Origin: Candidatus Omnitrophota bacterium
GTDB lineage: Bacteria > CG03
Length of the DNA stretch: 43,945 nucleotides
Direction of reading: 5' to 3'
Assembly: GCA_013791745.1 (NCBI GenBank)
Contig: VMTH01000007.1
Coordinates: forward strand, 1 to 43,945
This document shows positions 775 through 24,999 of the stretch, piece after piece (positions within the stretch are counted from its first letter, which is position 1; every line of letters begins with the position of its first letter). The notes under the pieces are model-generated. The model was not told where the DNA came from. It searched no databases and was given only the letters and a program-made list of their open reading frames with translations. A program made the translations under genes and the position numbers.

Positions 775-1503
775 TCATGATTTACTTTCCAGCTTTTTCA
801 TTATACCATCTATTACTTCTTTGGTCGCCGGTTCTGTTTTTCCCAGAGGGCTCCCTGATTCAGCGCTGTTTTCTATCACCTTATCATATGGCAGCACCCC
901 TATAACTTCAATACCAATATCTGACGCGTAAGATGGAATTTCATCAGTCCTGTTTATTACAAGTCCGACATTATCGGCACGGATCTTGAGTTTCTCCAGC
1001 AGAGACAGGCTGTTTTTTACGGTATCCAGGCTCACCCTGTCTTTATTGGCCACAAAAATAAGCCAGTCAACTTTACCGTCGGTCTGACGCGATAAATGTT
1101 CAAGCCCGGCTTCGTTGTCTATAATTTCCACGGGGTACCGTTTCCGCATACCGCCGAGGAATTCCCTGAGAATGTTGTTTATCGAGCAGTAGCAGTCCCT
1201 CCCCTCGTGATGGCCCATCGCGATGAAATCGACAGGGCCGCCCTCGGTGATGGCCTCTTCAACCTGAAGGGCGAAATACTGCGGCCTCGACATTCCCGCC
1301 GGAGGCGGATCGTTTTTCACTTCCTCTCGTATGTCAGCGATCGTCTTTTCATAATTAATCCCGAGAAGAACGTTCAGATTGGAATTGGAATCCGCGTCAA
1401 CTACGAGCACAGGTTTTACTCCTTTGTCCATGAAAGCGCTCACAAAAAGAGCTGCCAGCGTGGTCTTGCCGACTCCGCCCTTTCCTGCTAATGCTATTCT
1501 CAT
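775..1503 (-). CDS. cooC: CooC-family Ni-insertion ATPase (AcsF-type accessory protein of acetyl-CoA synthase)
   Basis: I place the start at the internal Met (MRIALAGKGGVGKTT), which has AGGAG 8 nt upstream, rather than at the track start 1545. It has a deviant Walker A GKGGVGKTT and a CooC-type CxC metal motif (GRDCYCSINN). It sits between acsV and acsD. Confidence 0.85.
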   Translation of the reverse strand: MRIALAGKGGVGKTTLAALFVSAFMDKGVKPVLVVDADSNSNLNVLLGINYEKTIADIREEVKNDPPPAGMSRPQYFALQVEEAITEGGPVDFIAMGHHEGRDCYCSINNILREFLGGMRKRYPVEIIDNEAGLEHLSRQTDGKVDWLIFVANKDRVSLDTVKNSLSLLEKLKIRADNVGLVINRTDEIPSYASDIGIEVIGVLPYDKVIENSAESGSPLGKTEPATKEVIDGIMKKLESKS

Positions 1504-1566: not shown

Positions 1567-3432
1567 TCATTTCTCATACTGCTTCCTCACATTGGGGAAC
1601 AGATCAAGGTTGGTGTGAGGAAAAAACAGGCTTGCCGTGTACTCCTGCATAAAAAATGAATTCGAAGACAGATCAATATACGTCATTTTTTTATTTATCT
1701 CCTCGGTTATATTCTTCGCCTCACGGCTCAGTATGCACATCTTCTCTCCGGTAATGGAGGAGTTCCCCAGGAAGACAAAAAGGTCCAGCGGTATGTCCGG
1801 TAAAAGCCCTATGTAAACAGCGTCCTTTATGTCCATAGCCGTTCCGAGGCCTCCCGATATATAAAACCTCTGTATGTTGTCAATCGTCAGGCCGAGTTCT
1901 TTCAGCAAGACGAATATCCCGGTAAAAATGGCTCCCTTGGAATTAATAAGATTTTTGATATCCGGTTCGGTGATATATATATCCTTCCCGTAGCGTGTTT
2001 CGTCCCCTTTCACAACAAGGAATCCTTTTTCTGTCACGCCGGGAGCTCCGGAAATGAATTTTCCATCCCGCTGGATGATGCGCTCGGAAATCATCTGAGC
2101 CGTCAAAGATATGAGCCCGCTCCCGCATATCCCCAGCGGTTTCTTGTTCTTGATCGTCTTATAAGTTACTTTGCCGTTTGATATTCTGACTTTCTCTATG
2201 GCGCCGGATATGGCTCTTATACCCGAAGAAATTCCGCCGCCTTCAAAACAGGGTCCGGCGCTTGTGGAACATGAAGCCAGCCAGTCCTTGTTGCCTATGA
2301 CTACCTCGCCGTTGGTGCCGAGGTCAACGAACATGGATAAAACAGAAAAATCATATATTCCCGAGGCAAGAACGCCCGCCACTATATCCCCTCCCACCCA
2401 GGCGGAAGGACACGGCAGAGCCGTAACTTTCGCAAACGGGCTTATCCGTATATTCAGTTCTCTCGCCGTCAGAACTACGGCAGAACCGAGCAGCGGCACA
2501 TACGGGCTGCGCCTTATAAATCCCGGAGGCAGTTTATAAAAGAAATGGGTCATCGTGGTGTTGCCCCCGGCAAGAAGAATGTAGACATTGTTACCCGATA
2601 CGTTTTTCTCCAGAATCATCTTCTGTATCATCTTGTTTACAGCCGTTATCAGGGATGAATGCATATGCTGCATACTGTTTTTTTCTTCAACCTGTATGAT
2701 CCTGGTGATTACGTCTTCTCCCATGGGGATCTGCGGATTGTAGGACGAAGCCGTTGATATAACTTCCTGCTTTTCCATATCTATAAGGTAGGCGACAAGC
2801 GTAGTCGTGCCGATGTCCAGGGCAATCCCGTAGTTCTCCTTTACCCTGTTTCCCGCTTCAAAGTCTATGATTTCCCCGTCACATACGGCTACTGTCACTT
2901 TCCAGCCGGCGCCGCGGAGGATATAGGGTATGCGCCTCAGAAGCTGAAGCGGAATTTCTTTCACCGGACAGCCCTTTTCAAGAAGAGCGGTTTTTACCCT
3001 TTCAAAATCAGCAGTGGGCTCCGCGAGAACAGGCGGGGAGAGCTCAAGAAAATGCTTTTCCACGATAGGCTCCGGAGAAAAAATATTTTCCGCGAGGGAA
3101 GAAGGCTCAAGTTCCTGACGGGACACCTCTCCCTCAAGTATATCCAGTTCCTCAACCCGGCTCGAATACGGAATCTCCAGTTCAAGGTCACTTTCCGGTA
3201 TCGTAAGACAGGCGAGAACAGTCTTTTCCTTTTCCTCTTCTTTAGTTAAGAACTGCGCCGATCGGGATTTATAACCGCCCTTCAGTATCTTTACCCTGCA
3301 TTTTCCGCAGGTCCCTTCCCCCGCGCATGTCGAGTTCATGAAAATGCCGCTGCTGTTTATGATGGTCAGCAAATCCGTACCCTTCTCCGCTTTCAGTTTC
3401 TTTTTGTCCGGCAGGATCAGAACTTCAATCAT
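1567..3432 (-). CDS. acsV: Reductive activator of the corrinoid Fe-S protein (RACo/AcsV): an N-terminal plant-type [2Fe-2S] ferredoxin domain plus an ASKHA ATPase domain
   Basis: 621 aa. The N-terminus carries CAGEGTCGKCRVKI...LACL (2Fe-2S). The core has the ASKHA phosphate motif GIALDIGTTTLVAYL and later DLGTNGEVV. It lies directly downstream of acsC. Confidence 0.85.
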   Translation of the reverse strand: MIEVLILPDKKKLKAEKGTDLLTIINSSGIFMNSTCAGEGTCGKCRVKILKGGYKSRSAQFLTKEEEKEKTVLACLTIPESDLELEIPYSSRVEELDILEGEVSRQELEPSSLAENIFSPEPIVEKHFLELSPPVLAEPTADFERVKTALLEKGCPVKEIPLQLLRRIPYILRGAGWKVTVAVCDGEIIDFEAGNRVKENYGIALDIGTTTLVAYLIDMEKQEVISTASSYNPQIPMGEDVITRIIQVEEKNSMQHMHSSLITAVNKMIQKMILEKNVSGNNVYILLAGGNTTMTHFFYKLPPGFIRRSPYVPLLGSAVVLTARELNIRISPFAKVTALPCPSAWVGGDIVAGVLASGIYDFSVLSMFVDLGTNGEVVIGNKDWLASCSTSAGPCFEGGGISSGIRAISGAIEKVRISNGKVTYKTIKNKKPLGICGSGLISLTAQMISERIIQRDGKFISGAPGVTEKGFLVVKGDETRYGKDIYITEPDIKNLINSKGAIFTGIFVLLKELGLTIDNIQRFYISGGLGTAMDIKDAVYIGLLPDIPLDLFVFLGNSSITGEKMCILSREAKNITEEINKKMTYIDLSSNSFFMQEYTASLFFPHTNLDLFPNVRKQYEK

Positions 3433-3439
3433 CGATCCG

Positions 3440-4753
3440 TCATCTCCAGGATTCCTTGAGATATTTAGGGAGAGCCGATGCCTCTTTGGGCCCTACAAGG
3501 ACTTCCCAGCCGCTCTCCTCCTCGACCTTCGCCTTCAAAACCGCGACATAACCCGGGATGATCAGCTTCTTGTGCTTCACCTTCTCCGCCACACCGCATT
3601 TCTGAAGCGACTGCGCTATAACCTCGGCGTTAAATTTGTCCGCTGCCCATGCCGTGAGAACCGACTGTCCCTCCGAATCCGTTATAAGCAGCCATGCCGG
3701 TATTTTAGAGTTTTCTATCTCCGGCTGAACCGTGTAGAAAGTCAGTGAAAAATTCGTTGTGACAATAACCGGCGAATTCTCATCGGGTTTCCCGACTTCG
3801 TAAAGTTTTGCTTCCATCATAAGGGGTTTCTGAGGGTCAGTGTAAATATTGAGCCTCAGTGTGATAAGAGCAAGCAGTTCCTCGTATTTCTCCGTCTCAA
3901 CAATTACCATGCCGGCATATTTGCATACAAAGTTTGCCGCAAGAGCGATGTCTCCCCCCGCCATTCCTATAAGAGGATATCCGAGCGGCCTGTAACTCTT
4001 TTTCAGGCACAGCCTCCATGAAGACGTTAATGAGTGCAGCGCCTCTTTCATATTTTCCGCCTTAGGGCAGAGCATGATGTTCTTGAATCCCTGCGCCTGT
4101 ATCTTCTGTGAGGTTTCGGCAACCTCCTCAAGGTCTTTCCCCTTCACCGCCAGGATACAGTCAGTCTCCTGTGCCATTTTCGCCCACTCTTCGCAGTTTC
4201 CCGCGTCGGCGCCGATTACGACAGGACGCTGGGTTGAAATGCCTGCTCTTGCTTTTTTAACAGATCCAATGTCTTCGCTGATAAGGACAAGCGGTATTTC
4301 TGAAGCGGCGGCCGCCCTGGCGGCAAAAGTTTCAGCATTACCGGAATCGTTTTTAAGCGCTACGGCGTCTATCCCGAACATCATACCCACGCGCTCAAAT
4401 TCCATTTTCCTGATGTTTTCAATTTTTGACTTGAATTCTTCCTCGGGAAGAGAATCGCTGAGCAGGATTACCAGCGCCGGAGCGTGAAAAAAAGTCTTTT
4501 CATGGCGGAACAGGACAGTCTCTCCTCCCAGCTCTATCTCATTGTCCTTAATACCGAATTTCAAAGTAGCCATCGGCGGCTGCGAGGCGCTCTCAAGTGC
4601 CTGTTTCCCGGCCGCGTCTATGTCCGGGCATTTATCAAGTGACGCTTTCTTCTGCGCCAGAGCCATCGCGAATGCAAGGCATGTCGGTAAACCGCATTTC
4701 TTACAGTTTGTTTTCGGCAGAAACTTATAAATCTGAAGACCTGTCAAAGCCAT
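3440..4753 (-). CDS. acsC: Corrinoid iron-sulfur protein large subunit (AcsC/CdhE-like)
   Basis: 437 aa. The N-terminus MALTGLQIYKFLPKTNCKKCGLPTCLAFAMALAQKKASLDKCP carries the CX2CX4CX16C [4Fe-4S] motif typical of CFeSP large subunits. It is followed by a TIM-barrel and a Rossmann-like B12 domain. Confidence 0.9.
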   Translation of the reverse strand: MALTGLQIYKFLPKTNCKKCGLPTCLAFAMALAQKKASLDKCPDIDAAGKQALESASQPPMATLKFGIKDNEIELGGETVLFRHEKTFFHAPALVILLSDSLPEEEFKSKIENIRKMEFERVGMMFGIDAVALKNDSGNAETFAARAAAASEIPLVLISEDIGSVKKARAGISTQRPVVIGADAGNCEEWAKMAQETDCILAVKGKDLEEVAETSQKIQAQGFKNIMLCPKAENMKEALHSLTSSWRLCLKKSYRPLGYPLIGMAGGDIALAANFVCKYAGMVIVETEKYEELLALITLRLNIYTDPQKPLMMEAKLYEVGKPDENSPVIVTTNFSLTFYTVQPEIENSKIPAWLLITDSEGQSVLTAWAADKFNAEVIAQSLQKCGVAEKVKHKKLIIPGYVAVLKAKVEEESGWEVLVGPKEASALPKYLKESWR

Positions 4754-4805: not shown

Positions 4806-6983
4806 TCACATCAGCGGGTCCATCTCGAGCGCCGGATGCTGGGACTGCTGCAGGTACTCGACCAGTTTTTCCGCGTCTGTTGCCGCACTCTCGTCCGCGA
4901 TCTTATCCAGTAGACCAGGAACCCCTTCCTCTTCACAGAGCTTTTTGAATTTATCGCCCAGAAATTCCTTCAATTCCTTCGGCATCCAGACAATGCGCTT
5001 TATTCCGCCGTCCGCCCGGAGGAACTTCTTTGACAGAAGATACAGTCTGCCCACGCCCATGAAACCGGGTGTCTGCTGGCCGCCGCCGACGGTGCCGGCG
5101 AGAGTCGTGAATGTCATGCCCGCCGGAGTCATTCCCGCGAATTCCCTGTTTACCACCATGAAACCGTTTGCTTCAGGTACTATCGCGAGGATCATCTCAA
5201 AGCACCCGCAGGAAGTTTCGGGGAAACTCATAATTGAATAAGCGTGGAACTTCTCAAGGGTTTTGTTTGAATGATTTTGTATAGCTTCGTTTATCCCTTC
5301 CCATTCACCTAATTCGGCGTCGAGGACTCTTCCTTTCTTGACCGGCTGGTTCGGGCCTTTAGGGTTTATTTCATAACTGGCCTTGCAGTCCAGCCAGTTG
5401 TATGCTCCACACAGGCCTATGCGCTCGGGCTTTACAATACACACGTGGGTCGGAGCGAAACTCTGGCAGAGCGTGCAGGTATAGAAGTCTTCCACGCTCT
5501 CGTCGGTCATCCCGGCCATCCTTTCGTCTCTGTCGTCATACACTTTCTTTGCAACCGACAGGTTCTTTTCCACTTCTTCTCCGACCGTGCTTATCCTCAC
5601 CTGTATCTTGTCCACGATGGCGCCGAACATCTCGTGGAGCCGCGCATGTATGATCACACCGAAATGCCTAAGAGTGAAGCCTTTTTCCTTCGCCTCTTTT
5701 GAAATCCTCATCCAGTTCATGTCCCTCTGTCCCATGTGGAATATGCCGTGCGCCTGGTTTATGACGGTGTGGATCTGCCTTTCAAGTATGGGCTCAAAAT
5801 CGCTCTGCATTTTTCTGCCCGCGACTTCGACCATGATCATAAGCGGGTAAGCCTGGCCTTCTTCCATAGCGTCAACGTCCGGACCGTTCAGATCGATTTT
5901 TCCGTCCTCTATTTCTTCAGAGTTTTTAGCGGTGACGAATTCAAAGCTTGCGCTGTACTTGCCGCCGAACTGGACGAATGTCTGTTCCTTTCTTACCCGC
6001 TCGCCTTCAAAAGCGGCGGAATACGCGACAGGTATCGGTATATCGCTTACCGTAACCTTAACACCTCTCACTTCTATGCAGGTGGGCACGATTTTTTTAT
6101 AATCAAGTTCATTCACTATGTGTTCGAAAGTGCATATTCCCGTAGGCAGTATTTCAGGAGTCTCCATATCAGTAATTACCGGGAAACCCATGTTTATAGC
6201 GCCCGCTCCTGTCGCGTATTTTATATCGTCGAGCGGACCCAGCGTAAGTCCGAAGGCGAACACCCTCTCCTTGCAGTATAAAAGGCATTCCTTTGCCTGA
6301 CCTTTCTTTAAACCTCCGAATGTCAGTGCGCCCCTGATTGCCCAGTTCAGCGGATAAATCGCCGTAACCGTGTCCCTGCCGTAAGGCACAATATATGTGT
6401 CCCAGCCCATTTCCATACCTTCTTCTTTCAGCTGGTCAATAATAGACTTGCCATTTGACGACGAACCGACAAAAGTGAGGATCTGCCTTTTCTGAAATTC
6501 CCTCACGATATCAACAGCGGTTTTACTGTCCGGAGCCGCGCCGAGAATCGCCGCGAAACCCGGAAGCCGGCCGTCGACGAGCTGTATGCCGAGAGAGCGC
6601 AGGATCGTATCCGAAAAAAAACCTTCGCAGTCATCCTGCGGTTCCTTTTCGTAAAGGTACCTGAGCGCGCATATTATCTCTTCGCACAAGAGCGCCGCGA
6701 TCCCGCTGTCCAGGGCATCACCCAGATACGGGAGATTCAGGCTGCTGCTGGGCTCCTCGCTTAAAAGGGACTGCGCTTCCTCTATAACAGGCTGAATATC
6801 CTTCAGCTTTTTCACGTCCAGGCCCATAAGGGCGCACGCCATCGGAAAATAAAAAGCCGTTTGCGGAAATCCGACTTCGCAGGACCCGCCCTTATCCTTT
6901 ACCGCATTCTCCCACGAAGTCTTCGCTTCATTGAATAACTGCCTTGCTCCCCGTATCGCCGCACTCGCAACTATCTTAGACAT
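4806..6983 (-). CDS. acsB: Acetyl-CoA synthase catalytic subunit (A-cluster subunit of CODH/ACS), bacterial long form
   Basis: About 725 aa. The true start is probably the ATG at 6983, which has GGGAGG upstream; the track start at 6986 is a TTG. A-cluster cysteines are present: CTLCQSFAPTHVCIVKPERIGLCGA and the Cys-Gly-Cys motif ETSCGCFE. The start overlaps the stop of the upstream nuoG-like gene by 8 nt. Confidence 0.93.
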   Translation of the reverse strand: MSKIVASAAIRGARQLFNEAKTSWENAVKDKGGSCEVGFPQTAFYFPMACALMGLDVKKLKDIQPVIEEAQSLLSEEPSSSLNLPYLGDALDSGIAALLCEEIICALRYLYEKEPQDDCEGFFSDTILRSLGIQLVDGRLPGFAAILGAAPDSKTAVDIVREFQKRQILTFVGSSSNGKSIIDQLKEEGMEMGWDTYIVPYGRDTVTAIYPLNWAIRGALTFGGLKKGQAKECLLYCKERVFAFGLTLGPLDDIKYATGAGAINMGFPVITDMETPEILPTGICTFEHIVNELDYKKIVPTCIEVRGVKVTVSDIPIPVAYSAAFEGERVRKEQTFVQFGGKYSASFEFVTAKNSEEIEDGKIDLNGPDVDAMEEGQAYPLMIMVEVAGRKMQSDFEPILERQIHTVINQAHGIFHMGQRDMNWMRISKEAKEKGFTLRHFGVIIHARLHEMFGAIVDKIQVRISTVGEEVEKNLSVAKKVYDDRDERMAGMTDESVEDFYTCTLCQSFAPTHVCIVKPERIGLCGAYNWLDCKASYEINPKGPNQPVKKGRVLDAELGEWEGINEAIQNHSNKTLEKFHAYSIMSFPETSCGCFEMILAIVPEANGFMVVNREFAGMTPAGMTFTTLAGTVGGGQQTPGFMGVGRLYLLSKKFLRADGGIKRIVWMPKELKEFLGDKFKKLCEEEGVPGLLDKIADESAATDAEKLVEYLQQSQHPALEMDPLM

Positions 6984-7743
6984 CAATACCTCCCGTATTC
7001 TTAAAATTCTCCGTTATTCTTTGCTTCCTGCACGCAGGGCAGAGGTTGAGAATCTCATTTAGTTTATCATTTTTTATTTTCTTTTTCGCTTCTTCAACCT
7101 GTTTCAGTGAAGCATATTTTTCCCCGCATTTATTGCAGGCCGCTAATTCCTCTTTTTTGTGCCATACTTCGATTTCCCGCGCTTTGCCGTCTTTAACCTT
7201 TATCCTTCCTGTCGGGCAGAGGTATGCGCAGGCCCCGCAGGCCATGCAGGCCGGATTCTCATCCAGGAACGGCGTTTCGGGGATCCTCGCCCTGCCCCGG
7301 TTCACAAAACCTATTGCTTCCCGGCCTATCAGCTCCTTACAAACCCTGATGCAGAGCCCGCAACGTATACAATTATCCGGTTCTTTGCCCGCAACCCTGG
7401 AAACATCCGCCGCTCCGTACTTCCGCGCAAGTTTTTTAATTTCTTCCGCTTCCGGCGCCAGCGAGAACAGTTGACTGATGACAACTTTTCTTGCGCTCAC
7501 TACTTTTTCTGAATCAGTAAAAATTATAAGCCCTTCGCTGACCGGATATGTGCAGGATGTCGTAAGAGTCTTCCAGCCTTTCTTTTCAACTTCGACCAGG
7601 CATACTCTGCAGGAGGCATAGGGTTCAAGAGAGGGATGCCAGCACAGATGCGGTATGTCAAACCCATTCTCAAGCGCGGCCTCGAGGATCGTCCTATCCT
7701 TTTCGGTCTCCACTTTTTTCCCGTCTATAGTAATCCCAATCAT
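6976..7743 (-). CDS. NuoG/HydA-N-terminal-like ferredoxin subunit ([2Fe-2S] + 2x[4Fe-4S]) with no catalytic domain and a C-terminal CxxC...CxxC tail
   Basis: 255 aa. MIGITIDGKKVETEKDRTILEAALENGFDIPHLCWH...CRVCLVEV...C forms the 2Fe-2S site (C34, C45, C48, C64). CIRCGLCIRVC and CMACGACAYLCP are two 4Fe-4S motifs. The tail has CNKCG...CPACR. There is no H-cluster or molybdopterin domain. A 4-nt overlap links it to the nuoF-like gene upstream, and an 8-nt overlap links it to acsB downstream. Confidence 0.8.
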   Translation of the reverse strand: MIGITIDGKKVETEKDRTILEAALENGFDIPHLCWHPSLEPYASCRVCLVEVEKKGWKTLTTSCTYPVSEGLIIFTDSEKVVSARKVVISQLFSLAPEAEEIKKLARKYGAADVSRVAGKEPDNCIRCGLCIRVCKELIGREAIGFVNRGRARIPETPFLDENPACMACGACAYLCPTGRIKVKDGKAREIEVWHKKEELAACNKCGEKYASLKQVEEAKKKIKNDKLNEILNLCPACRKQRITENFKNTGGIDV

Positions 7744-9530
7744 ATTTTTGTCACAGCGCCGAAGTTACATACCTCCAGACATATCCCGCATTTTATACAC
7801 TTCCCCTGAACAATGACGTGAGGTTTCTTTTTCTCTCCGGTGATCGCATCCTGAGGACAGTTCTTAGCGCACAGCGTGCAGCCGGTGCACTCTTTTTCCA
7901 GTATTTCGTATTTAATCAGCGCGGGGCAGACTTTTGCGGGACAAATCCCCTTTATGTGCGCCAGGTATTCGTCCCTGAAATATTTCAGAGTAGTAAGTAC
8001 GGGGTTCGGCGCGGCTTTCCCCAGCCCGCACAGAGAAGTCTCCTTTACCATCCGCGAAATCTTTTCCAGTTCGGTCAGGTCATTCTCATCCGCTTTCCCC
8101 TCAATAAACCTGTCAAGTATCTTCAGCATCAGGTAAGTGCCTTCCCTGCAGGGAGTGCATTTTCCGCAGGATTCCTCCTGCGTAAAGGAAAGAAAATACC
8201 TTGCCACCTGCACCATGCAGGTATCCTCGTCCATCACGACCATACCGCCGCTCCCCATCATGCTGCCGGCCTCGGTCAGGGCCTCGTAATCAACAGGGAG
8301 ATCAAGGTATTTCTCCGGGATATTGCCTCCTGACGGCCCCCCGGTCTGAACCGCCTTGAATTTCTTTCCGCCTATGATCCCGCCGCCTATCTTGAAAATC
8401 AGATCCCTCAGGGTGATTCCCATCGGGACCTCAACAAGCCCCGTGTTCCTCACTTTCCCGACGAGGGAAAAAATCATCGTCCCCTTTGAATTCTCCGTGC
8501 CGATGGAGGAAAACCACTTCCCGCCGTTTTTGATGATCAGCGTGACCGACGCCCAGGTCTTCACATTATTTAGAGCGGTCGGTTTGTCCCATAAGCCTTT
8601 GTCCGTTGCGTGGATATGCTTCACCCGCGGCTCTCCGAGACGTCCTTCTATTGAAGCCATAAGAGCGCTTGACTCGCCGCAGACGAAAGCCCCTGCGCCC
8701 TGCACGATCTCAATCTCAAAATCAAAACCGGAATTAAGAATATTTTTACCGAGAAACCCTTTTGCCATCGCCTGGTTGAGGGCGATTTCAAGATGTTTCA
8801 CCGCGAGCGGGTACTCCGCCCTGACGTAAATGAAACCTTTGTTTGATTGTATTGCAAAAGCCCCTATGATCATGCCCTCTATTACAAGATGAGGATTACC
8901 CTCGAGGATGCTCCTGTCCTGGAAACAGCCGGGGTCTCCCTCGTCAGCATTGCAGATAATATATCGCGTATCGGACACCTGCGATTTCCTGCAGGAATCC
9001 CATTTCCTCCAAGTCGGGAAACCGCCGCCTCCCCGGCCGCGCAGGCCTGAGGTTTTTACTTCTTCCACTATCGCGTCCGGACTCATCCCAAGCGCTTTTT
9101 CAAGAGCTTTATATCCTCCGAGATCCGTGTAATCCTTAATATCCGTCGGGTCAATCCTGCCGTTATTCTCAAAAAGAATCCGTTTCTGGTATTTGTAAAA
9201 AGGAACCTGTTCTTCTTCAACGATTTTTGTTTTTGATACTTCGTCTTCATAAAGGAACTCTTCAATTATCTCACCCTTTAAAACGGTCTTTTCAACAATC
9301 CTTTCTACATCCTCCGCTTTTATTTTCTGATAAAAAATGCTTTTGGCGTCATTCCTTATGACTACCAGCGGGCCTCTTTCGCAAAACCCGTGACAGCCAG
9401 TCATTTTTGACACGGCTTTAACCTGCATATTGTCAGCGGGCAATAACTCCCTGAACTTCTTCAGGACTTCTCCCGCACCCTGTGCGGAACACCCTGTCCC
9501 GCAGCAAACCGACACTATCGTCCCTGTCAT
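7740..9530 (-). CDS. NuoF/HydB-like NAD(H)- and FMN-binding subunit with an N-terminal thioredoxin-like [2Fe-2S] domain and a C-terminal 2x[4Fe-4S] ferredoxin domain
   Basis: 596 aa. The N-terminus has CCGTGC...CHGFCERGP. The flavin/NADH region has GLRGRGGGGFPTWRKW and a glycine-rich GAGAFVCGE. The N3-type cluster motif is ESCGKCTPCREG. The C-terminus has CTGCTLCAKNCP and CIKCGICLEVC. This is the architecture of HydB/HndC-type (Bfu-type) subunits. Confidence 0.9.
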   Translation of the reverse strand: MTGTIVSVCCGTGCSAQGAGEVLKKFRELLPADNMQVKAVSKMTGCHGFCERGPLVVIRNDAKSIFYQKIKAEDVERIVEKTVLKGEIIEEFLYEDEVSKTKIVEEEQVPFYKYQKRILFENNGRIDPTDIKDYTDLGGYKALEKALGMSPDAIVEEVKTSGLRGRGGGGFPTWRKWDSCRKSQVSDTRYIICNADEGDPGCFQDRSILEGNPHLVIEGMIIGAFAIQSNKGFIYVRAEYPLAVKHLEIALNQAMAKGFLGKNILNSGFDFEIEIVQGAGAFVCGESSALMASIEGRLGEPRVKHIHATDKGLWDKPTALNNVKTWASVTLIIKNGGKWFSSIGTENSKGTMIFSLVGKVRNTGLVEVPMGITLRDLIFKIGGGIIGGKKFKAVQTGGPSGGNIPEKYLDLPVDYEALTEAGSMMGSGGMVVMDEDTCMVQVARYFLSFTQEESCGKCTPCREGTYLMLKILDRFIEGKADENDLTELEKISRMVKETSLCGLGKAAPNPVLTTLKYFRDEYLAHIKGICPAKVCPALIKYEILEKECTGCTLCAKNCPQDAITGEKKKPHVIVQGKCIKCGICLEVCNFGAVTKI

Positions 9531-9931
9531 TTGTATTTCTCCAGGACCTTTACTATTTTCTGGGGAGTCATTTTTCCGTGATAGTCGTCGTCGATCATTA
9601 CCAGCGGGCCAAGGGCGCAGGCCCCTATGCAGTTGACGGTCTCAAGCTTGAAATTCCCGTCTTTTGTGGAATCCCCGGGATTTATCCCCAATACCTGTGT
9701 GATCCTCTCCACGATCCGGGGGGCGCCCCTTACATAGCATGCAGTTCCCATGCATACCATTATTTTGTGCTTTGCCGGAGGGACGAGCGAAAAAGATTTA
9801 TAAAATGTCGCTACGGAATAAATACGCGACATGGGTATATCCAGCCTGTGAGAAACCTCTTCCAGCTTCTCTCTCTTAAGATACCCGCATTCTCTCTGGA
9901 TATCCTGCAGAACTCTTATCAGATTCGTCAT
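9527..9931 (-). CDS. NuoE/HydC-like thioredoxin-fold [2Fe-2S] subunit
   Basis: 134 aa, with CMGTACYVRGA...VNCIGACALGP (the four-Cys pattern of NuoE). It overlaps the nuoF-like start by 4 nt. Confidence 0.88.
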   Translation of the reverse strand: MTNLIRVLQDIQRECGYLKREKLEEVSHRLDIPMSRIYSVATFYKSFSLVPPAKHKIMVCMGTACYVRGAPRIVERITQVLGINPGDSTKDGNFKLETVNCIGACALGPLVMIDDDYHGKMTPQKIVKVLEKYK

Positions 9932-9951
9932 TCTCTATAAATCCTGTTTTA

Positions 9952-10446
9952 TCATTTCTTAAACTCGGTCAAAAATCTTCTCGTCTTCTCCCTTGAGATT
10001 TCCGTCGGCTCTACAAAAACCAGCGCTTTTGTAGGACAGGCCGCAGCGCAGGCCGGCTCTTCGCCCTGTTTCAGCCTTTCCCTGCATAAATCGCATTTTA
10101 TCACGGCTTTGCCTTCCCTGTTTGTTTTGATAACACCGAAGGGGCATGCGATAACGCAGAAATCGCATCCTATGCACGATTCGCTGTCCAAAAAAACAAT
10201 CCCGTTTTCTTCTTTACTTAAAGCCCCGGAGGGGCATACCGCAACGCACGGCGCGTCCTCGCAGTGACGGCACTGAAGAGGGAGAGTCACATCGTCGCAG
10301 CCGATTACACTGATCCTGGCTGCCGGCCGCGGTTCTTCCGCAATTGCTTTAGCCAATTCCCTGCTTTTAGAATGAGCAACCGCGCAGGCGAGCTGACAGC
10401 TCCTGCAGGCAAGGCATTTCTCAGGGGATATGTATATTATTTTCAT
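9952..10446 (-). CDS. cooF: CooF-type polyferredoxin (4x[4Fe-4S]-like), the electron-transfer partner of CODH
   Basis: 164 aa. It has multiple CxxCxxCxxxC(P) motifs (CLACRSCQLAC, CRHCEDAPCVAVCP, CIGCDFCVIACP, CDLC...CAAACP). It lies 13 nt downstream of cooS. Confidence 0.85.
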   Translation of the reverse strand: MKIIYISPEKCLACRSCQLACAVAHSKSRELAKAIAEEPRPAARISVIGCDDVTLPLQCRHCEDAPCVAVCPSGALSKEENGIVFLDSESCIGCDFCVIACPFGVIKTNREGKAVIKCDLCRERLKQGEEPACAAACPTKALVFVEPTEISREKTRRFLTEFKK

Positions 10447-10459
10447 CGCTGCCCCCTGC

Positions 10460-12361
10460 TTAATTTTTTTCCGCTAACGGTTTCAGGTTGAGTTTCACCC
10501 TTTTCTCGTCCAGCAGTTTTACAATCATATCAGCCGTCTTTACCGGATCCGGCTCAAAAACGAAATTCGCCCCGACAAGTTTATGAATATCCTCCAGCAG
10601 GAATTTCTTCACTTTCTCACTCCCTATGACAGGCAAAGGATTGCCGAGAAAAGTGGTTATACCCGAACCCACCGCGTAAAACGCGATCGCAACGGCTTTT
10701 TCGCTCATCCATTCGGGAGCCGCGCCCGCCACCGGCAGGTCCGAGATATCCTCTCCCAGGCCGCCTTCCTTCAGGACATTGCACAGAATCACGAGAATCC
10801 TTGATATATCAACGCAGGACCCCAGATGCAGGACCGGCGGGATCCCCACAGTCTCGCATATTTCCTTCAGGCCCGGGCCGCAAAGATCTTTCGCTTCAGG
10901 CCTGAGAAGCCCCGCTTTCGCTGAGGCAATCGCGGAACAGCCGGTCGTGACGACAAGCACATCTCTCTTGATCAGTTCCTCCGTAAGTCTGATATGACAC
11001 AGATCGTGTACCTGTTTGGGGTTGTTGCACCCGACAATACCCACGGCTCCCCTCAGCCGGCCTGATATTATGGCATCGTTCAGAGGCCGGTAGGTGGACC
11101 GGTATTTGCCGCCGAGGAACTGAAAAACAGATTCCGCGGTAAAACCCGCGACAAGATCCATTGTCACATCGGGGATATTCACCTTTGCTTCTATTCTGTT
11201 GGGGAAGTTGTCTATGGCGATCTTCACTATTCCCTTGGCAATGTCAAACGCTTTCTCCTCATTGAATTCAATATGCTCGGCAAACGGAAATTTTGCCTTG
11301 GGAGAAGTTGAAATAAGTTTTGTGTGTGAGCACTGGCAGAGATCTCCCAGCGCCGGCATAACGCACTGGATGTCCACGAGCATAACTTCAACGGCGCCCG
11401 TTGCGATCGCCAGTTCCTGCTGCAGGAAATTTCCCGCAATGGGTATTCCGTGACGCATAAGTATCTCATTTGCCGTGCAGCAGATCCCGGCAAGGTTTAT
11501 TCCTTTCGCCCCCTTGCTTTTCGCGTATTCCAGCATCTCCTTGTCCCGTACCGCATCGACCATGACATCGGATAATGTCGGCTCATGGCCGTGGACGATT
11601 ATGTTCACTTCGTCTTTGCTTATAACACCGAGGTTTACTTTTGACCTTATCGGTTCGGGGCTTCCGAACAGAATATCGGAAAGTTCTGTCGCGATCATAG
11701 AACCGCCCCAGCCGTCGGCCAGCGAATTTCGTAACCCCTGCAACAGCAGGTTGACATCATCATTGTCGGCGCCGACATGAGTTCTATGCAGGGTATCGAC
11801 CACTTCCCTGTCTATGCCGCGCGGAACTATTTTAAGGTCTCTCCAGATTTTCTGTCTTTTTTCCGGCGCACGCTTAATAAAGAGGAGTTCTCCCTGCTGC
11901 CGTGAAAACTCCGCGAAAGCTATTTCCGCCACGTCCTTTGCTATCGCGTTAGTATCCCGGCCCTCTGTCTTTACGCCGTATTCCGCTGCAATAACAAGAA
12001 GTTTCTTTTTATCTTTGATTGAATATCCCTTTGTCTTGCCCTCAGCGGCAAGGAGCAGTGTATGGGCAATATCCCGGCCGTGGTCGGAGTGGGCAGCGGC
12101 GCCGGCGGCAATCATCCTTATGAGATTCCTTGCGGAAATTATTGCGGCGGTAGCCCCGCAAACGCCTTTCTGAGGACCTTCGCCGAACGGATCAATCCTG
12201 CAGGGCCCCATAACACAATTTTTACAGCAGAGCCCCATCTCGCCGAAACCGCACTGGGGAAGCATTTTCTCGTATCTGGTCCAGGCGGTTTCAAGATCCG
12301 GATTTTTTTCAAGAACTTCCCTGCTCGCTTTATCATGGGTCAATTCAGTGGGTTTCTTCAT
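10460..12361 (-). CDS. cooS: Anaerobic Ni-Fe carbon monoxide dehydrogenase catalytic subunit (C-cluster)
   Basis: 633 aa. The N-terminal D/B-cluster motif is CGFGEMGLCCKNCVMGPCRI. Also present are HGHEP, GICCTANE, VGCNNP, TGCSA and LGSCVD, the characteristic CooS/AcsA blocks. Confidence 0.93.
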   Translation of the reverse strand: MKKPTELTHDKASREVLEKNPDLETAWTRYEKMLPQCGFGEMGLCCKNCVMGPCRIDPFGEGPQKGVCGATAAIISARNLIRMIAAGAAAHSDHGRDIAHTLLLAAEGKTKGYSIKDKKKLLVIAAEYGVKTEGRDTNAIAKDVAEIAFAEFSRQQGELLFIKRAPEKRQKIWRDLKIVPRGIDREVVDTLHRTHVGADNDDVNLLLQGLRNSLADGWGGSMIATELSDILFGSPEPIRSKVNLGVISKDEVNIIVHGHEPTLSDVMVDAVRDKEMLEYAKSKGAKGINLAGICCTANEILMRHGIPIAGNFLQQELAIATGAVEVMLVDIQCVMPALGDLCQCSHTKLISTSPKAKFPFAEHIEFNEEKAFDIAKGIVKIAIDNFPNRIEAKVNIPDVTMDLVAGFTAESVFQFLGGKYRSTYRPLNDAIISGRLRGAVGIVGCNNPKQVHDLCHIRLTEELIKRDVLVVTTGCSAIASAKAGLLRPEAKDLCGPGLKEICETVGIPPVLHLGSCVDISRILVILCNVLKEGGLGEDISDLPVAGAAPEWMSEKAVAIAFYAVGSGITTFLGNPLPVIGSEKVKKFLLEDIHKLVGANFVFEPDPVKTADMIVKLLDEKRVKLNLKPLAEKN

Positions 12362-12407: not shown

Positions 12408-13187
12408 CTACCTGGGCGGCAGGCGGGTTTCGTCACCGTCAAACGATTGCTCTTTCAATACTGACTTTAAACTGTCCAGGATTTTTTCCAGTTCTTTTTT
12501 TATCTGTACGGTATCCTTCAATTTCCCTCGTTCTTTCCGCAGATTTGGATTATAGGAAATAAATCCCGCGAAATCAATTTTGCCGACTTTACCGCGCAGA
12601 TAATCCTTATCGGACTCATCCCATATCTTGTTCGCGATAATTTCTATATGCCTGACGCCCAGCTTTTCCGCCAACTCCTTGATCTTCCGGGCGGTCTCAA
12701 TGCTCTTTATTTCCGGCTCTACGATTAGAAAGAGCATATCCACTCCGGCAACGACACCGCGCGTCAAGTGTTCTATTCCGGCTTCCATATCAAGCACCAC
12801 GGCCTCGTCCCTTTCAAGGACAAGGTGACTGATGAGAGCCTTTATGAGCGAGTTTTCCGGGCAGAAACAGCCGGTCTTGTTAGTATATTTCCCTATCTGC
12901 ATTATCCTTATCCCGTCAAAGTCCAGTGAATATTTGTCCGGCAGGTCGTTTACGAAAGGGTTCAGTTTGAAAAGCCCGCCGTCGGCGGCGGTCCTTTCTT
13001 TTATCATCTCTTTCAATCCGGATATTGACTGCAACTCCGCTTTGGCGTCAAAGAGAGTCAGTAGATTGCTGTCCGGGTCGCAGTCTATCGCGAGGACCTT
13101 GAATCCTCTTTCTTTCAGGATAACCGCAAGAAGAGCGGCGATTGTCGTCTTTCCGCTGCCGCCTTTTCCCGATACCGCTATTTTCAT
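12408..13187 (-). CDS. cooC: CooC-family Ni-insertion ATPase (CODH maturation); first gene of the acs operon
   Basis: 259 aa. Walker A is MKIAVSGKGGSGKTT and the CxC motif is TGCFCPENS. It is a second, diverged paralogue of the gene at 775-1503. Confidence 0.85.
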   Translation of the reverse strand: MKIAVSGKGGSGKTTIAALLAVILKERGFKVLAIDCDPDSNLLTLFDAKAELQSISGLKEMIKERTAADGGLFKLNPFVNDLPDKYSLDFDGIRIMQIGKYTNKTGCFCPENSLIKALISHLVLERDEAVVLDMEAGIEHLTRGVVAGVDMLFLIVEPEIKSIETARKIKELAEKLGVRHIEIIANKIWDESDKDYLRGKVGKIDFAGFISYNPNLRKERGKLKDTVQIKKELEKILDSLKSVLKEQSFDGDETRLPPR

Positions 13188-13291: not shown

Positions 13292-13321
13292 ATTTTACAG
13301 AAAAAAGGATGTGGTTGTCAA
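13292..13321 (-). promoter_or_regulatory. Candidate sigma70-type promoter of the cooC-cooS-...-acsD operon
   Basis: The minus strand reads TTGACA (13321-13316), an 18-nt spacer, then TAAAAT (13297-13292). This lies about 105 nt upstream of the cooC ATG. Confidence 0.45.
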
Positions 13322-21802: not shown

Positions 21803-21812
21803 ACGAAAATTC

Positions 21813-24832: not shown

Positions 24833-24875
24833 TAAATCCTCCCAATATACAATTCTCTCTAATCAATACAGACGA

Positions 24876-24904
24876 ATTCTATAACTCTTCACGATTTCAG
24901 TCAA
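24876..24904 (-). promoter_or_regulatory. Candidate sigma70-type promoter of thiM-thiE
   Basis: The minus strand reads TTGACT (24904-24899), a 17-nt spacer, then TAGAAT (24881-24876). This lies about 45 nt upstream of the thiM ATG. Confidence 0.4.
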
Positions 24905-24999
24905 CACAGACAGCCGCCGCTATTTGTTTTTTTTTGGCGAATTATATAAGATTTTACCGTAATGATTTGGAAAACTTACAAAACCCGGGGGAAAATAAC

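What the first reader, a model, noticed from the sequence alone, without database searches (positions are those of the whole stretch)
6976..10446. HydBC/Bfu-type NuoE-NuoF-(truncated NuoG) flavin module inserted between acsA/cooF and acsB of the CODH/ACS operon
In characterised acs clusters, acsA and acsB are adjacent or separated only by accessory genes. Here cooS-cooF is followed by three other genes. The first is a NuoE-like 2Fe-2S protein. The second is a 596-aa NuoF-like protein with the extra N-terminal 2Fe-2S domain and C-terminal 2x[4Fe-4S] domain typical of electron-bifurcating HydB/HndC-type subunits. The third is a 255-aa NuoG-N-terminus-like protein carrying only clusters, with no H-cluster, Mo/W-pterin or other catalytic domain. 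The three genes are translationally coupled to each other (4-nt overlaps) and to acsB (8-nt overlap). This suggests a stoichiometric assembly in which CODH (via CooF) takes the place of the catalytic head of a Bfu-like enzyme. Such an assembly would connect CO/CO2 chemistry directly to NAD(P)(H), possibly together with ferredoxin. Whether bifurcation is involved is unclear, because CO oxidation alone is exergonic with both acceptors. A NAD(P)-linked CODH/ACS supercomplex would change how redox balance of the pathway is modelled in this lineage.
Basis: partly seen in the sequence, partly recalled or inferred. Interest (0 to 1): 0.65.

Follow-up and report, generated by a model that had tools for sequence, protein, structure and literature searches.

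The report
NADH/ferredoxin flavin module wired into CODH/ACS
An acetyl-CoA-pathway operon from an uncultured groundwater bacterium carries, between its CO dehydrogenase and its acetyl-CoA synthase genes, a complete electron-bifurcation-type (Bfu) flavin/iron-sulfur module, which suggests that CO2 reduction in this pathway is driven by NADH plus ferredoxin rather than by ferredoxin alone.

Summary
On the minus strand the operon reads cooC-cooS-cooF-nuoE-nuoF-nuoG'-acsB-acsC-RACo-cooC-acsD.

The three inserted genes are a complete Type-2 Bfu core (BfuC, BfuB, BfuA). BfuB carries every cofactor motif that separates bifurcating enzymes from plain NuoF/HoxF. BfuA lacks the His-ligated cluster and any catalytic domain.

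CooF, BfuA, BfuB and BfuC each match, end to end, a chain of the solved electron-bifurcating tungsten aldehyde oxidoreductase Wor-Bfu (PDB 9MQX). CooS would sit where the tungsten subunit sits.

The same cassette lies inside CODH/ACS operons in at least ten other loci. BfuB from these loci falls in at least three separate, well-supported parts of the BfuB tree, one of them archaeal.

The best reading is a CODH/ACS-Bfu assembly that couples CO2/CO chemistry to NAD(H) and ferredoxin. No experiment tests this.

A stand-alone "Codh-Bfu" was already predicted in 2022, and NuoEFG-like genes near Wood-Ljungdahl CODHs were noted in 2019. The ACS-embedded form is therefore a new variant of a known kind.

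The parts
13292..13321 (-). Best sigma-70-like promoter match (TTGACA-18-TAAAAT, 11 of 12), about 105 nt upstream of cooC1. Candidate operon promoter.
   Evidence: a consensus match only
12408..13187 (-). cooC1, the Ni-insertion ATPase for CODH and first gene of the operon
   Evidence: CbiA/ParA/NifH-like P-loop; conserved position
10460..12361 (-). cooS/acsA, the Ni,Fe-CO dehydrogenase catalytic subunit (633 aa)
   Evidence: Prismane 3e-180; best solved relatives are CooS-type CODHs, including the CODH of the C. autoethanogenum CODH/ACS
9952..10446 (-). cooF, a poly-[4Fe-4S] electron-transfer subunit (164 aa). Proposed bridge between CooS and BfuA, the counterpart of the CooF-like chain E of Wor-Bfu.
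   Evidence: Fer4_11; full-length match to 9mqx_E, E 3e-31
9527..9931 (-). bfuC (NuoE-like), a thioredoxin-like [2Fe-2S] subunit of 134 aa. It is about 22 residues shorter at the N-terminus than solved BfuC/HydC.
   Evidence: PF01257 1.6e-48; best match 7t2r_C, then HydC, NfnC and 9mqx_C
7740..9530 (-). bfuB (NuoF-like), the FMN/NAD(H) subunit of 596 aa. Cluster ligands: N-terminal [2Fe-2S] (C9/C10, C14, C46, C50); B1 [4Fe-4S] (C455, C458, C461, C501); B2/Zn site (C438, H525, C530, C535, with I476 at the fifth position); C-terminal 2x[4Fe-4S] (C548, C551, C554, C558 and C578, C581, C584, C588).
   Evidence: (765 bits to A. mobile NiFe-Bfu subunit B, 760 bits to Wor-Bfu subunit B, both full length)
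6976..7743 (-). bfuA (truncated NuoG, Type 2), 255 aa. Ligands: [2Fe-2S] (C34, C45, C48, C64); two [4Fe-4S] (C125, C128, C131, C135 and C166, C169, C172, C176); C-terminal CxxC...CxxC (C201, C204, C233, C236). No His-ligated cluster and no catalytic domain.
   Evidence: alignment A1; full-length match to 9mqx_A, E 8e-47; AF2 pLDDT 90.2; TM 0.85/0.88, rmsd 2.3 A to 9mqx_A
4806..6983 (-). acsB, the acetyl-CoA synthase (A-cluster) subunit with the N-terminal CODH-docking domain. Its ATG at 6983 overlaps bfuA by 8 nt.
3440..4753 (-). acsC, large subunit of the corrinoid iron-sulfur protein
   Evidence: CdhD + FeS
1567..3432 (-). RACo, the ATP-dependent reductive activator of the corrinoid protein
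   Evidence: Fer2 + RACo linker/middle/C-terminal domains
775..1503 (-). cooC2/acsF-like Ni-insertion ATPase
   Evidence: 242-aa public gene call
1..758 (-). acsD, small subunit of the corrinoid protein. Only the N-terminal part is present; it runs off the window. On the public contigs the operon continues with acetate kinase, acsE, a cyclohydrolase (FTCD_C) and FTHFS.

Best explanation
The three inserted genes, together with cooF, encode the electron-transfer chassis of a Type-2 Bfu enzyme: BfuC, BfuB, BfuA and a CooF-type bridging subunit. This chassis docks on the CO dehydrogenase of the CODH/ACS complex.

The proposed electron path is: C-cluster, B-cluster and D-cluster of CooS; then the four [4Fe-4S] clusters of CooF; then the two [4Fe-4S] and the [2Fe-2S] of BfuA; then the BfuB/BfuC core. 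In the core, FMN exchanges a hydride with NAD(H), and the C-terminal 2x[4Fe-4S] domain of BfuB exchanges single electrons with ferredoxin.

In the acetogenic direction the enzyme would confurcate: NADH + reduced ferredoxin + 2 CO2 give 2 CO. The CO is consumed at once by AcsB through the CODH-ACS tunnel. In the acetyl-CoA-cleaving or CO-oxidising direction it would bifurcate to NAD+ and ferredoxin.

Shown here: the domain and ligand content, the end-to-end homology of all four subunits to a solved bifurcating complex, the operon structure, and recurrent synteny. Inferred: physical assembly, the electron path, the use of NAD(H) rather than NADP(H), and bifurcation itself.
For: (a) Domain and ligand content meets the published Bfu definition (definition in PMC9304861).

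(b) BfuA, BfuB, BfuC and CooF match chains A, B, C and E of 9MQX, titled 'Electron-bifurcating tungstopyranopterin-containing aldehyde oxidoreductase with NADH'. All four matches are end to end: E 8e-47, 760 bits, E 2e-35 and E 3e-31. The AF2 model of BfuA superposes on 9mqx_A with TM 0.85/0.88.

(c) The genes overlap (ATGA, ATGA, 8 nt) inside one operon. There is a promoter-like site only upstream of cooC1, and terminator-like matches do not exceed chance: 20 found against 16.2 +/- 4.2 expected.

(d) The same cooC-cooS-cooF-E-F-G'-acsB-acsC-RACo order occurs in L001, L002, L087, L088, L089 and L091; the partial P0040 contig shows the G'-acsB-acsC-RACo part of it. BfuA identity falls to 40% across these. 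Rearranged but still intercalated versions occur in L003 (Firestonebacteria) and L010 (Myxococcales MAG).

(e) In a BfuB tree the window's clade (bootstrap 100 for the core, 60 with L003 and L091) is entirely CODH/ACS-linked. Other CODH/ACS-linked BfuBs sit elsewhere. L010 pairs with L026 (100) and that pair groups with the AOR/Wor clade (bootstrap 68). L028 sits inside an archaeal F420-type clade (100). L002 is separate but its position is poorly supported. I read this as repeated independent recruitment.

(f) In the Bathyarchaeia MAG L028 a Bfu module is inserted between cdhA and cdhB, and BfuB is fused in frame to CdhB, the CODH-binding epsilon subunit.

(g) Between the window and L001, E and F are as conserved (87%, 86%) as CooS and AcsB (86%, 87%).

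(h) The nearest BfuA relatives sit with other low-potential oxidoreductases (AOR, POR) in the same cooF-like-X-E-F-G' format. The cassette is therefore a portable adaptor.

(i) No hydrogenase or formate dehydrogenase gene lies in the 44-kb window.
Against: There is no biochemical, proteomic or structural evidence for a CODH/ACS-Bfu complex in any organism. Codh-Bfu itself remains a prediction (PMC9304861; one search found no later paper).

Standard-state CO oxidation (-520 mV) can reduce both NAD+ and ferredoxin without bifurcation. The thermodynamic rationale therefore rests on an assumed very low CO activity in the tunnel.

The fifth B2-site position is Ile476, a minority state (22 of 1558 Bfu sequences). 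BfuC lacks about 22 N-terminal residues.

The BfuB::CdhB fusion was seen in a single MAG. None of the 120 best CdhB homologues is fused.

Transcript evidence is negligible: three short contigs in one metatranscriptome.

The rest of the genome was not searched for an orphan catalytic partner. Deep nodes of the NJ tree are unsupported.
Confidence: 0.6

Rival explanations
1. The module is bound to CODH but does not bifurcate. CooS-CooF-BfuABC is simply a CO:NAD(P)+ oxidoreductase. It would be a functional analogue of the CooS-CooF-FNOR systems, and the C-terminal ferredoxin-like domain of BfuB would serve only as an internal wire or be idle.
For: CO/CO2 at -520 mV can reduce NAD+ directly (Table 1 of PMC9304861). 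A separate, 100%-supported clade of CODH-linked NuoF proteins (L092, L009, L014) lacks the C-terminal 2x[4Fe-4S] domain. This shows that plain NADH-linked CODHs probably exist.
Against: The window's BfuB keeps every feature that distinguishes bifurcating from non-bifurcating homologues: the N-terminal 2Fe-2S, the B2/Zn-site Cys3His, and both C-terminal [4Fe-4S] clusters. In characterised Wor-Bfu, an equally low-potential substrate is oxidised only when NAD+ and ferredoxin are both present (PMC9304861).
Confidence: 0.17
2. The module is co-regulated with the Wood-Ljungdahl genes but is not attached to CODH. It would serve another catalytic partner encoded elsewhere (a hydrogenase, a formate dehydrogenase or methylene-THF reductase), or act as a free redox-balancing unit.
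For: Bfu cores combine with many partners (PMC9304861). Only 44 kb of the genome was examined.
Against: A Type-2 BfuA has no catalytic domain and needs a partner. The only redox enzyme that is always adjacent is CooS/CooF. The cooF-E-F-G' cassette is found next to CODH in lineages that lack ACS in the neighbourhood (L018, L034, L092), and inside CODH/ACS operons in loci whose BfuBs fall in several separate parts of the BfuB tree. The genes overlap with each other and with acsB. The window has no hydrogenase or FDH.
Confidence: 0.13
3. The module supplies low-potential electrons for reductive reactivation of the corrinoid protein (through RACo) or for Ni-cluster maturation, rather than for catalytic turnover of CODH.
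For: RACo and two cooC genes lie in the same operon. Bifurcation could generate the very low potential needed for Co(II) to Co(I).
Against: The cassette also occurs with CODH alone, without RACo or the corrinoid protein genes (L018, L034, L092). It is always led by a CooF-type subunit, as in Wor-Bfu, where that subunit contacts the catalytic enzyme. RACo is found in ordinary acs clusters without Bfu; that statement rests on my own knowledge.
Confidence: 0.05

Closest known systems
Wor-Bfu (BfuABCSL), the electron-bifurcating tungsten aldehyde oxidoreductase of Acetomicrobium mobile (PDB 9MQX; Schut et al. 2021/2022)
   Same: It has the same four-subunit electron-transfer chassis. The 247-aa Type-2 BfuA includes the C-terminal CxxC...CxxC motif (38% identity, TM 0.85/0.88). 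BfuB is full length (760 bits). BfuC is present. A roughly 150-aa CooF-like subunit (chain E) matches the window's CooF end to end. Its substrate couple is also very low in potential.
   Different: The catalytic subunit is a tungstopterin AOR-family protein, not a Ni,Fe-CODH. There is no partner enzyme that consumes the product, whereas here ACS takes the CO. In the BfuB tree the Wor/AOR clade is separate from the window's clade.
Codh-Bfu, predicted for Acetohalobium arabaticum and Clostridium cellulovorans (Schut et al. 2022, PMC9304861)
   Same: It is a Type-2 Bfu core encoded together with a Ni-CODH and poly-[4Fe-4S] subunits, and CO is proposed as the third substrate. It is likewise uncharacterised.
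   Different: There, the CODH genes lie between bfuB and bfuA. It was reported in only four sequences, all Firmicutes, and described as a CO-oxidising or detoxifying enzyme. Here the order is cooS-cooF-bfuC-bfuB-bfuA, the cassette is intercalated between the CODH and ACS genes of a full Wood-Ljungdahl operon, and relatives span non-Firmicutes lineages and an archaeon.
NiFe-Bfu (HydABCSL) of A. mobile, and the FeFe HydABC hydrogenases of T. maritima, T. kivui and A. woodii
   Same: These give the best overall BfuB and BfuC matches: 7t2r_B at 765 bits and 7t2r_C at E 4e-42. The BfuBC core and its cluster ligands are the same.
   Different: Their BfuA/HydA is 570-690 aa. It carries the His-ligated cluster plus either an H-cluster domain or a docking site for NiFe subunits. 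The window's BfuA is a 255-aa cluster-only protein.
HytA-E/FdhA of Clostridium autoethanogenum (FdhFeFe-Bfu), another Type-2 Bfu of an acetogen
   Same: According to PMC9304861, its HytD/BfuA carries only the A1, A2 and A4 clusters, and separate catalytic subunits feed the core. It also serves the Wood-Ljungdahl pathway.
   Different: It catalyses H2/formate chemistry on the methyl branch. The window's module sits on the carbonyl branch. No direct sequence comparison was made here.
Complex I N-module (NuoEFG) and the HoxEFU diaphorase
   Same: Homologous folds for all three proteins.
   Different: NuoF and HoxF lack the N-terminal 2Fe-2S, the B2 site and the C-terminal 2x[4Fe-4S]. NuoG and HoxU carry the His-ligated cluster (PF10588), which appears as an insertion in the HoxU-like sequences P0058 and P0060 in alignment A1. 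No membrane-arm or hydrogenase genes are nearby.

Membership tests
Bfu family (Schut et al. 2022) | BfuB carries the NuoF FMN-binding, SLBB, NuoF [4Fe-4S] and ferredoxin-type 4Fe-4S domains (IPR011538, IPR019554, IPR019575, IPR017896) | tested here: met
   PF01512, PF10531, PF10589 and a C-terminal Fer4 dicluster domain. The definition was read.
Bfu family (Schut et al. 2022) | BfuC is a NuoE-type thioredoxin-like [2Fe-2S] protein (IPR002023) | tested here: met
   (PF01257, 1.6e-48). It is N-terminally shorter by about 22 residues.
Bfu family (Schut et al. 2022) | B2-site ligands are conserved (Cys438, His525, Cys531, Cys536 in A. mobile numbering). The His is absent from non-bifurcating homologues. 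| tested here: met
   C438, H525, C530, C535. The fifth, variable position is Ile476, which is Ile in 22 of 1558 family members.
Bfu family (Schut et al. 2022) | BfuB has the N-terminal [2Fe-2S] (B5) and the two C-terminal [4Fe-4S] clusters (B3, B4) that are proposed to bind ferredoxin | tested here: met
   C9/C10, C14, C46, C50; then C548, C551, C554, C558 and C578, C581, C584, C588.
Bfu family (Schut et al. 2022) | Tightly coupled three-substrate (bifurcating/confurcating) activity | not testable with these tools
   Needs an enzyme assay.
Type 2 Bfu | BfuA lacks the A3 and A5 clusters and any catalytic domain. Electrons enter from extra subunits. | tested here: met
   one [2Fe-2S] and two [4Fe-4S], with no PF10588. 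Full-length match to the Type-2 BfuA 9mqx_A. The extra subunits CooF and CooS are encoded directly upstream.
Codh-Bfu as described in 2022 | Ni-CODH and poly-FeS subunit genes lie inside the bfu gene cluster | tested here: met
   cooS-cooF lie immediately upstream of bfuCBA in one operon.
Codh-Bfu as described in 2022 | CODH genes sit between bfuB and bfuA, BfuB belongs to clade 49, and members are Firmicutes only | tested here: not met
   The gene order differs. Relatives include Firestonebacteria, a Myxococcales MAG and Bathyarchaeia. Clade assignment is inconclusive: the best solved match is clade-49 A. mobile NiFe BfuB, nearly tied with clade-45 Wor BfuB, and the deep nodes of the tree are unsupported.
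Bacterial CODH/ACS (AcsABCDE) | CooS-type CODH, AcsB with its N-terminal CODH-docking domain, both corrinoid protein subunits, and the methyltransferase, all in one cluster | tested here: met
   cooS, acsB with PF18537, acsC; acsD and acsE just beyond or at the window edge.
Respiratory complex I N-module | NuoG with the His-ligated cluster and a molybdopterin-like domain, and adjacent membrane-arm nuo genes | tested here: not met
HoxEFU diaphorase of NAD-reducing [NiFe] hydrogenase | HoxU with the His-ligated cluster, and adjacent hoxYH genes | tested here: not met
   the insertion is present in the HoxU-like sequences P0058 and P0060 and absent here; no hydrogenase genes.
CooS-CooF-FNOR (FAD-dependent NAD(P) oxidoreductase-linked CODH) | A pyridine-nucleotide-disulfide-type FNOR gene next to cooS-cooF | tested here: not met
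   the operon has no Pyr_redox protein.

The most novel reading that the evidence does not exclude
CODH/ACS in this lineage is a true flavin-based confurcating enzyme. A CooS2-CooF-BfuABC-AcsB supercomplex uses one NADH and one reduced ferredoxin to make two CO, which are channelled straight into acetyl-CoA synthesis. That would halve the ferredoxin cost of the carbonyl branch. This wiring would have been invented independently at least three times, including once in Archaea by insertion between cdhA and cdhB with BfuB fused to the epsilon subunit.
Probability: 0.4. Interest if true: 0.8.

Novelty: new variant of a known kind. Interest (0 to 1): 0.55.

Why it matters
Energy budgets for the Wood-Ljungdahl pathway assume that CO2 reduction to CO costs one reduced ferredoxin. 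Reduced ferredoxin is the most expensive reductant in an anaerobe living near the thermodynamic limit.

If NADH supplies half of these electrons by confurcation, the ferredoxin that is saved can pass through Rnf or Ech. The ATP yield per acetate then changes. The same applies, in reverse, to the energetics of acetate oxidation. This matters for models of subsurface acetogens: near-identical sequence occurs in groundwater and subsurface metagenomes from at least 11 studies.

It would also give the first case where the puzzling 'low-potential third substrate' Bfu enzymes have an obvious rationale. A channelled intermediate at very low activity puts the couple between NAD and ferredoxin.

Finally, the cooF-bfuCBA cassette appears to be a portable adaptor that plugs different low-potential oxidoreductases (CODH, CODH/ACS, AOR, POR) into the NAD and ferredoxin pools.

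Tried and rejected
- Complex I N-module and HoxEFU readings. Rejected because BfuB has the extra clusters, BfuA lacks the His-cluster, and no partner genes are present.
- Bam-type benzoyl-CoA reductase context for the Syntrophaceae relatives. Pfam showed POR alpha/beta subunits instead.
- Rosetta-stone test. I searched the CdhB part of the L028 BfuB::CdhB fusion against 5.8 billion proteins. All 120 best hits are stand-alone CdhB of about 180 aa, so the fusion is a single case and only weak support.
- Transcript evidence. Only three contigs of 151-163 nt from one groundwater metatranscriptome map to acsC, the acsB/acsC junction and bfuB. That is too little to show co-transcription.
- Literature. 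'Codh-Bfu' occurs in one paper only. Searches for CODH/ACS together with NuoF, CooF and bifurcation found no paper describing this arrangement.
- The first tree attempt with Biopython timed out. I replaced it with my own NJ and bootstrap code.
- Taxonomy of the source organism could not be established. The closest genome records are labelled only 'bacterium'.
- I did not run a third homologue search or the metagenome scan, because synteny was already answered.

Full report
**What is there.** The region lies in a minus-strand operon. A sigma-70-like site at 13321-13292 precedes cooC1. The genes run in this order:
- cooC1 (12408-13187)
- cooS/acsA (10460-12361)
- cooF (9952-10446)
- a NuoE-like gene (9527-9931)
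- a NuoF-like gene (7740-9530)
- a truncated NuoG-like gene (6976-7743)
- acsB (4806-6983)
- acsC (3440-4753)
- RACo (1567-3432)
- a second cooC (775-1503)
- the start of acsD (758-1)

On public contigs that carry the identical protein, the operon continues with acetate kinase, acsE, a cyclohydrolase and FTHFS. It is therefore a complete Wood-Ljungdahl cluster.

nuoE/nuoF and nuoF/nuoG' each share ATGA. nuoG'/acsB share 8 nt (ATGTCTAA). The stated span also includes cooF, which is separated from nuoE by 20 nt. Terminator-like matches inside the operon do not exceed chance.

**What the three proteins are.** The 596-aa protein has the full domain set of a bifurcating BfuB/HydB: an N-terminal thioredoxin-like [2Fe-2S] part, the FMN/NADH domain, SLBB, the NuoF [4Fe-4S] domain and a C-terminal 2x[4Fe-4S] ferredoxin domain.

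Its best solved relatives, all full length, are subunit B of the A. mobile NiFe-HydABCSL (765 bits) and 9mqx_B (760 bits), followed by NfnB and HydB of T. kivui, A. woodii and T. maritima. Complex I NuoF and FdsB match only the central 400 residues, at about half the score.

Schut et al. 2022 (PMC9304861) define the Bfu family by these domains and by a B2 site (Cys438, His525, Cys531, Cys536) whose His is missing in non-bifurcating homologues. The window's protein has C438, H525, C530 and C535, plus all ligands of B1, B3, B4 and B5. The variable fifth position is Ile476, a minority state seen in 22 of 1558 family members.

The 134-aa protein is a BfuC/HydC-type NuoE (best match 7t2r_C, E 4e-42). 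It is about 22 residues shorter at the N-terminus, and this holds for its whole clade.

The 255-aa protein has one [2Fe-2S] and two [4Fe-4S] motifs. It lacks the His-ligated cluster (no PF10588) and has a conserved C-terminal CxxC...CxxC motif. That is the published definition of a Type-2 BfuA: clusters A1, A2 and A4 only, with electrons fed in from extra subunits.

**The closest solved system.** The 255-aa protein aligns end to end with 9mqx_A (247 aa, E 8e-47), including the C-terminal Cys motif. An AlphaFold2 model (pLDDT 90.2) superposes on 9mqx_A with TM 0.85/0.88, rmsd 2.3 A and 38% identity. The next hits are only the N-terminal thirds of HydA and NuoG.

9MQX is titled 'Electron-bifurcating tungstopyranopterin-containing aldehyde oxidoreductase with NADH'. 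Its B chain is the 'Am Wor' sequence of the Bfu paper. The window's CooF also aligns end to end with chain E of that complex, a 152-aa CooF-like subunit (E 3e-31). BfuC matches chain C.

So all four electron-transfer proteins encoded between cooS and acsB have a counterpart in one solved, biochemically bifurcating complex. CooS occupies the place of the tungsten subunit.

**Conservation and independent origins.** The BfuA family is small: 64 clusters at E <= 1e-10 among 5.8 billion proteins.

In 80 genome loci that hold BfuA relatives, tblastn with the window's proteins found the identical cooC-cooS-cooF-E-F-G'-acsB-acsC-RACo order in two:
- L001, an unclassified bacterium (74-87% identity)
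- L002, a Clostridia MAG (45% BfuA identity)

Rearranged but still intercalated versions occur in two more:
- L003 (Ca. Firestonebacteria): cooS..acsB-cooF-E-F-G'-acsC
- L010 (Myxococcales MAG): cooF-like-E-F-G'-cooS-acsB-acsC

Five of the seven more distant metagenomic BfuA homologues that I looked up have the same arrangement: L087, L088, L089, L091 and the P0040 contig. One sits with POR (L090) and one with cooF-cooS only (L092).

Other relatives sit in the same format behind an aldehyde oxidoreductase (the Wor-Bfu type: L030, L032, L038, L046, L063) or behind a 2-oxoacid:ferredoxin oxidoreductase (L004, L005, L011, L015, L017, L037).

I built a neighbour-joining tree of 72 BfuB sequences with 200 bootstraps.
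- The window groups with L001, L087, L088 and L089 (bootstrap 100), and more loosely with L003 and L091 (60). Every member of this group is CODH/ACS-linked.
- L010 pairs with L026 (100), and the pair groups with the AOR/Wor clade (bootstrap 68).
- L028 lies inside an archaeal F420-type clade (100).
- L002 is placed elsewhere, with weak support.

Deep nodes are unsupported, so the exact number of origins is uncertain. At least three are well separated.

Between the window and L001 the E and F proteins are as conserved (87%, 86%) as CooS and AcsB (86%, 87%).

**The archaeal case.** In the Bathyarchaeia MAG L028 the order is cdhA, then a BfuA carrying an FrhB domain, then bfuC, bfuB, cdhC and cdhD. 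The 814-aa BfuB ORF continues in frame into a CdhB (epsilon subunit) domain. Ordinary Bathyarchaeia have cdhA-cdhB-cdhC.

None of the 120 best CdhB homologues is fused. The fusion is therefore a single observation from one co-assembled MAG. I treat it as suggestive only. The insertion point, between the CODH subunit and the rest of the ACS genes, mirrors the bacterial one.

**Mechanism proposed.** Shown: the parts list, their ligands, the operon structure, the homology to Wor-Bfu and the recurrent synteny. Everything below is inferred.

CooF bridges the surface-exposed cluster of the CooS dimer to the [4Fe-4S] pair of BfuA. Electrons then pass through the BfuA [2Fe-2S] to the BfuB/BfuC core. 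There FMN handles NAD(H), and the C-terminal ferredoxin-like domain of BfuB handles ferredoxin, as proposed for all Bfu enzymes. AcsB has its CODH-docking N-terminal domain (PF18537), so the same CooS should also carry ACS.

In CODH/ACS, however, CO is a tunnelled intermediate. By the Nernst equation (n = 2), each ten-fold drop in CO activity raises the couple by about 30 mV. At a CO/CO2 ratio near 1e-4 the couple sits near -400 mV, between NAD and ferredoxin, which is where H2 and formate sit for HydABC and Fdh-Bfu. This calculation is my own inference. Schut et al. argue similarly that bifurcation would allow use of extremely low CO.

In the acetogenic direction this means NADH + reduced ferredoxin + 2 CO2 give 2 CO, with ACS pulling the reaction. 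Half of the ferredoxin demand of the carbonyl branch would be replaced by NADH.

**Rivals.**
- A non-bifurcating CO:NAD+ oxidoreductase is possible. A separate clade of CODH-linked NuoF proteins lacks the C-terminal ferredoxin domain (L092, L009, L014) and probably works that way. The window's BfuB keeps every bifurcation-specific feature.
- A partner encoded elsewhere cannot be excluded, because only 44 kb was examined. The window holds no hydrogenase or FDH. It does hold a PFOR at 24742-28524. The cassette follows CODH across lineages.
- A role in corrinoid reactivation is unlikely, because the cassette also occurs with CODH alone.

**Comparison with the literature.** Schut et al. 2022 predicted a 'Codh-Bfu' from four Firmicutes sequences in which the CODH genes lie between bfuB and bfuA. 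They saw it as a CO-oxidising or detoxifying enzyme, and it remains uncharacterised. Inoue et al. 2019 listed NuoEFG-like COGs among the genes associated with Wood-Ljungdahl-type Ni-CODHs, without interpretation. Suzuki et al. 2018 mention a nuoEF set near CODH/ACS in one MAG.

I found no paper that describes the cassette intercalated between acsA/cooF and acsB, proposes a CODH/ACS-Bfu assembly, or notes the archaeal parallel. The searchable library does not cover subscription journals.

**Verdict.** This is a new variant (ACS-embedded, phylogenetically broad, recurrent) of a predicted but uncharacterised kind (Codh-Bfu, Type-2 Bfu). Confidence that the module works with the CODH of CODH/ACS and links it to NAD(H) and ferredoxin is about 0.6. 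Interest is 0.55.

Noticed in passing
window about 10463-10469 (minus strand, end of cooS); L083:7224-7343: In a sister MAG (GCA_018899275.1) the A7 run just before the cooS stop codon is A6. This puts cooS in frame with cooF and gives an 802-aa CooS::CooF ORF. It could be a homopolymer assembly error or a real variant.
   Followed up: partly
L028:5104-15897: In a Bathyarchaeia MAG a Bfu module is inserted between cdhA and cdhB of the archaeal CODH/ACS operon. BfuA carries an F420-type FrhB domain (473 aa). BfuB is fused in frame to the CdhB epsilon subunit (814 aa). No other fusion was found among the 120 best CdhB homologues.
   Followed up: partly
L092:2238-7753; L009; L014; L006; L016: A 100%-supported clade of NuoF-like proteins lacks the C-terminal 2x[4Fe-4S] domain. 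They sit next to cooF-cooS or cooC, including in Methanoregula and Methanospirillum MAGs. This is probably a distinct, non-bifurcating NADH-linked CODH.
   Followed up: partly
L091:9821-13660: The acsB gene in this CODH/ACS-Bfu locus is 1279 aa and carries an intein (Intein_splicing plus a LAGLIDADG endonuclease).
   Followed up: no
L087:5397-6280 and 9771-10242: An AbiEii toxin-like gene and a 79-aa ORF are inserted between cooS and cooF. cooT and a DUF8180 gene lie between bfuA and acsB. The cassette tolerates insertions at its borders.
   Followed up: no
L071:4226-10780; also L076, L077, L045, L051, L080: In Desulfobacterales a BfuA-like 250-260-aa protein occurs without NuoE or NuoF. It follows an FDH-like molybdopterin protein, a CooF-like protein and a 724-aa NfnB/GltD-like flavoprotein. 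In L071 and L076, acsC-acsB(-cooS) lie next to it on the other strand.
   Followed up: partly
window 9527-9931: BfuC is N-terminally short (129-137 aa, against about 155 aa in solved HydC/BfuC) throughout the window's clade. The start codon lies only 20 nt after the cooF stop.
   Followed up: partly
window 24742-28524 (+), 19904-23336 (-): A single-polypeptide pyruvate:ferredoxin oxidoreductase (1260 aa) lies 11 kb from the operon. A PRK-family kinase-like protein (507 aa) sits next to a transketolase-like protein (632 aa).
   Followed up: no
L081:17894-19102 (just beyond the window's start): Acetate kinase is encoded inside the acs cluster, between acsD and acsE. That is an unusual place for it and fits an acetogenic or acetate-activating lifestyle.
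   Followed up: no
window 6900-10500: Near-identical sequence is present in groundwater and subsurface metagenomes from at least 11 different studies (2018-2025). The organism is widespread in aquifers.
   Followed up: no
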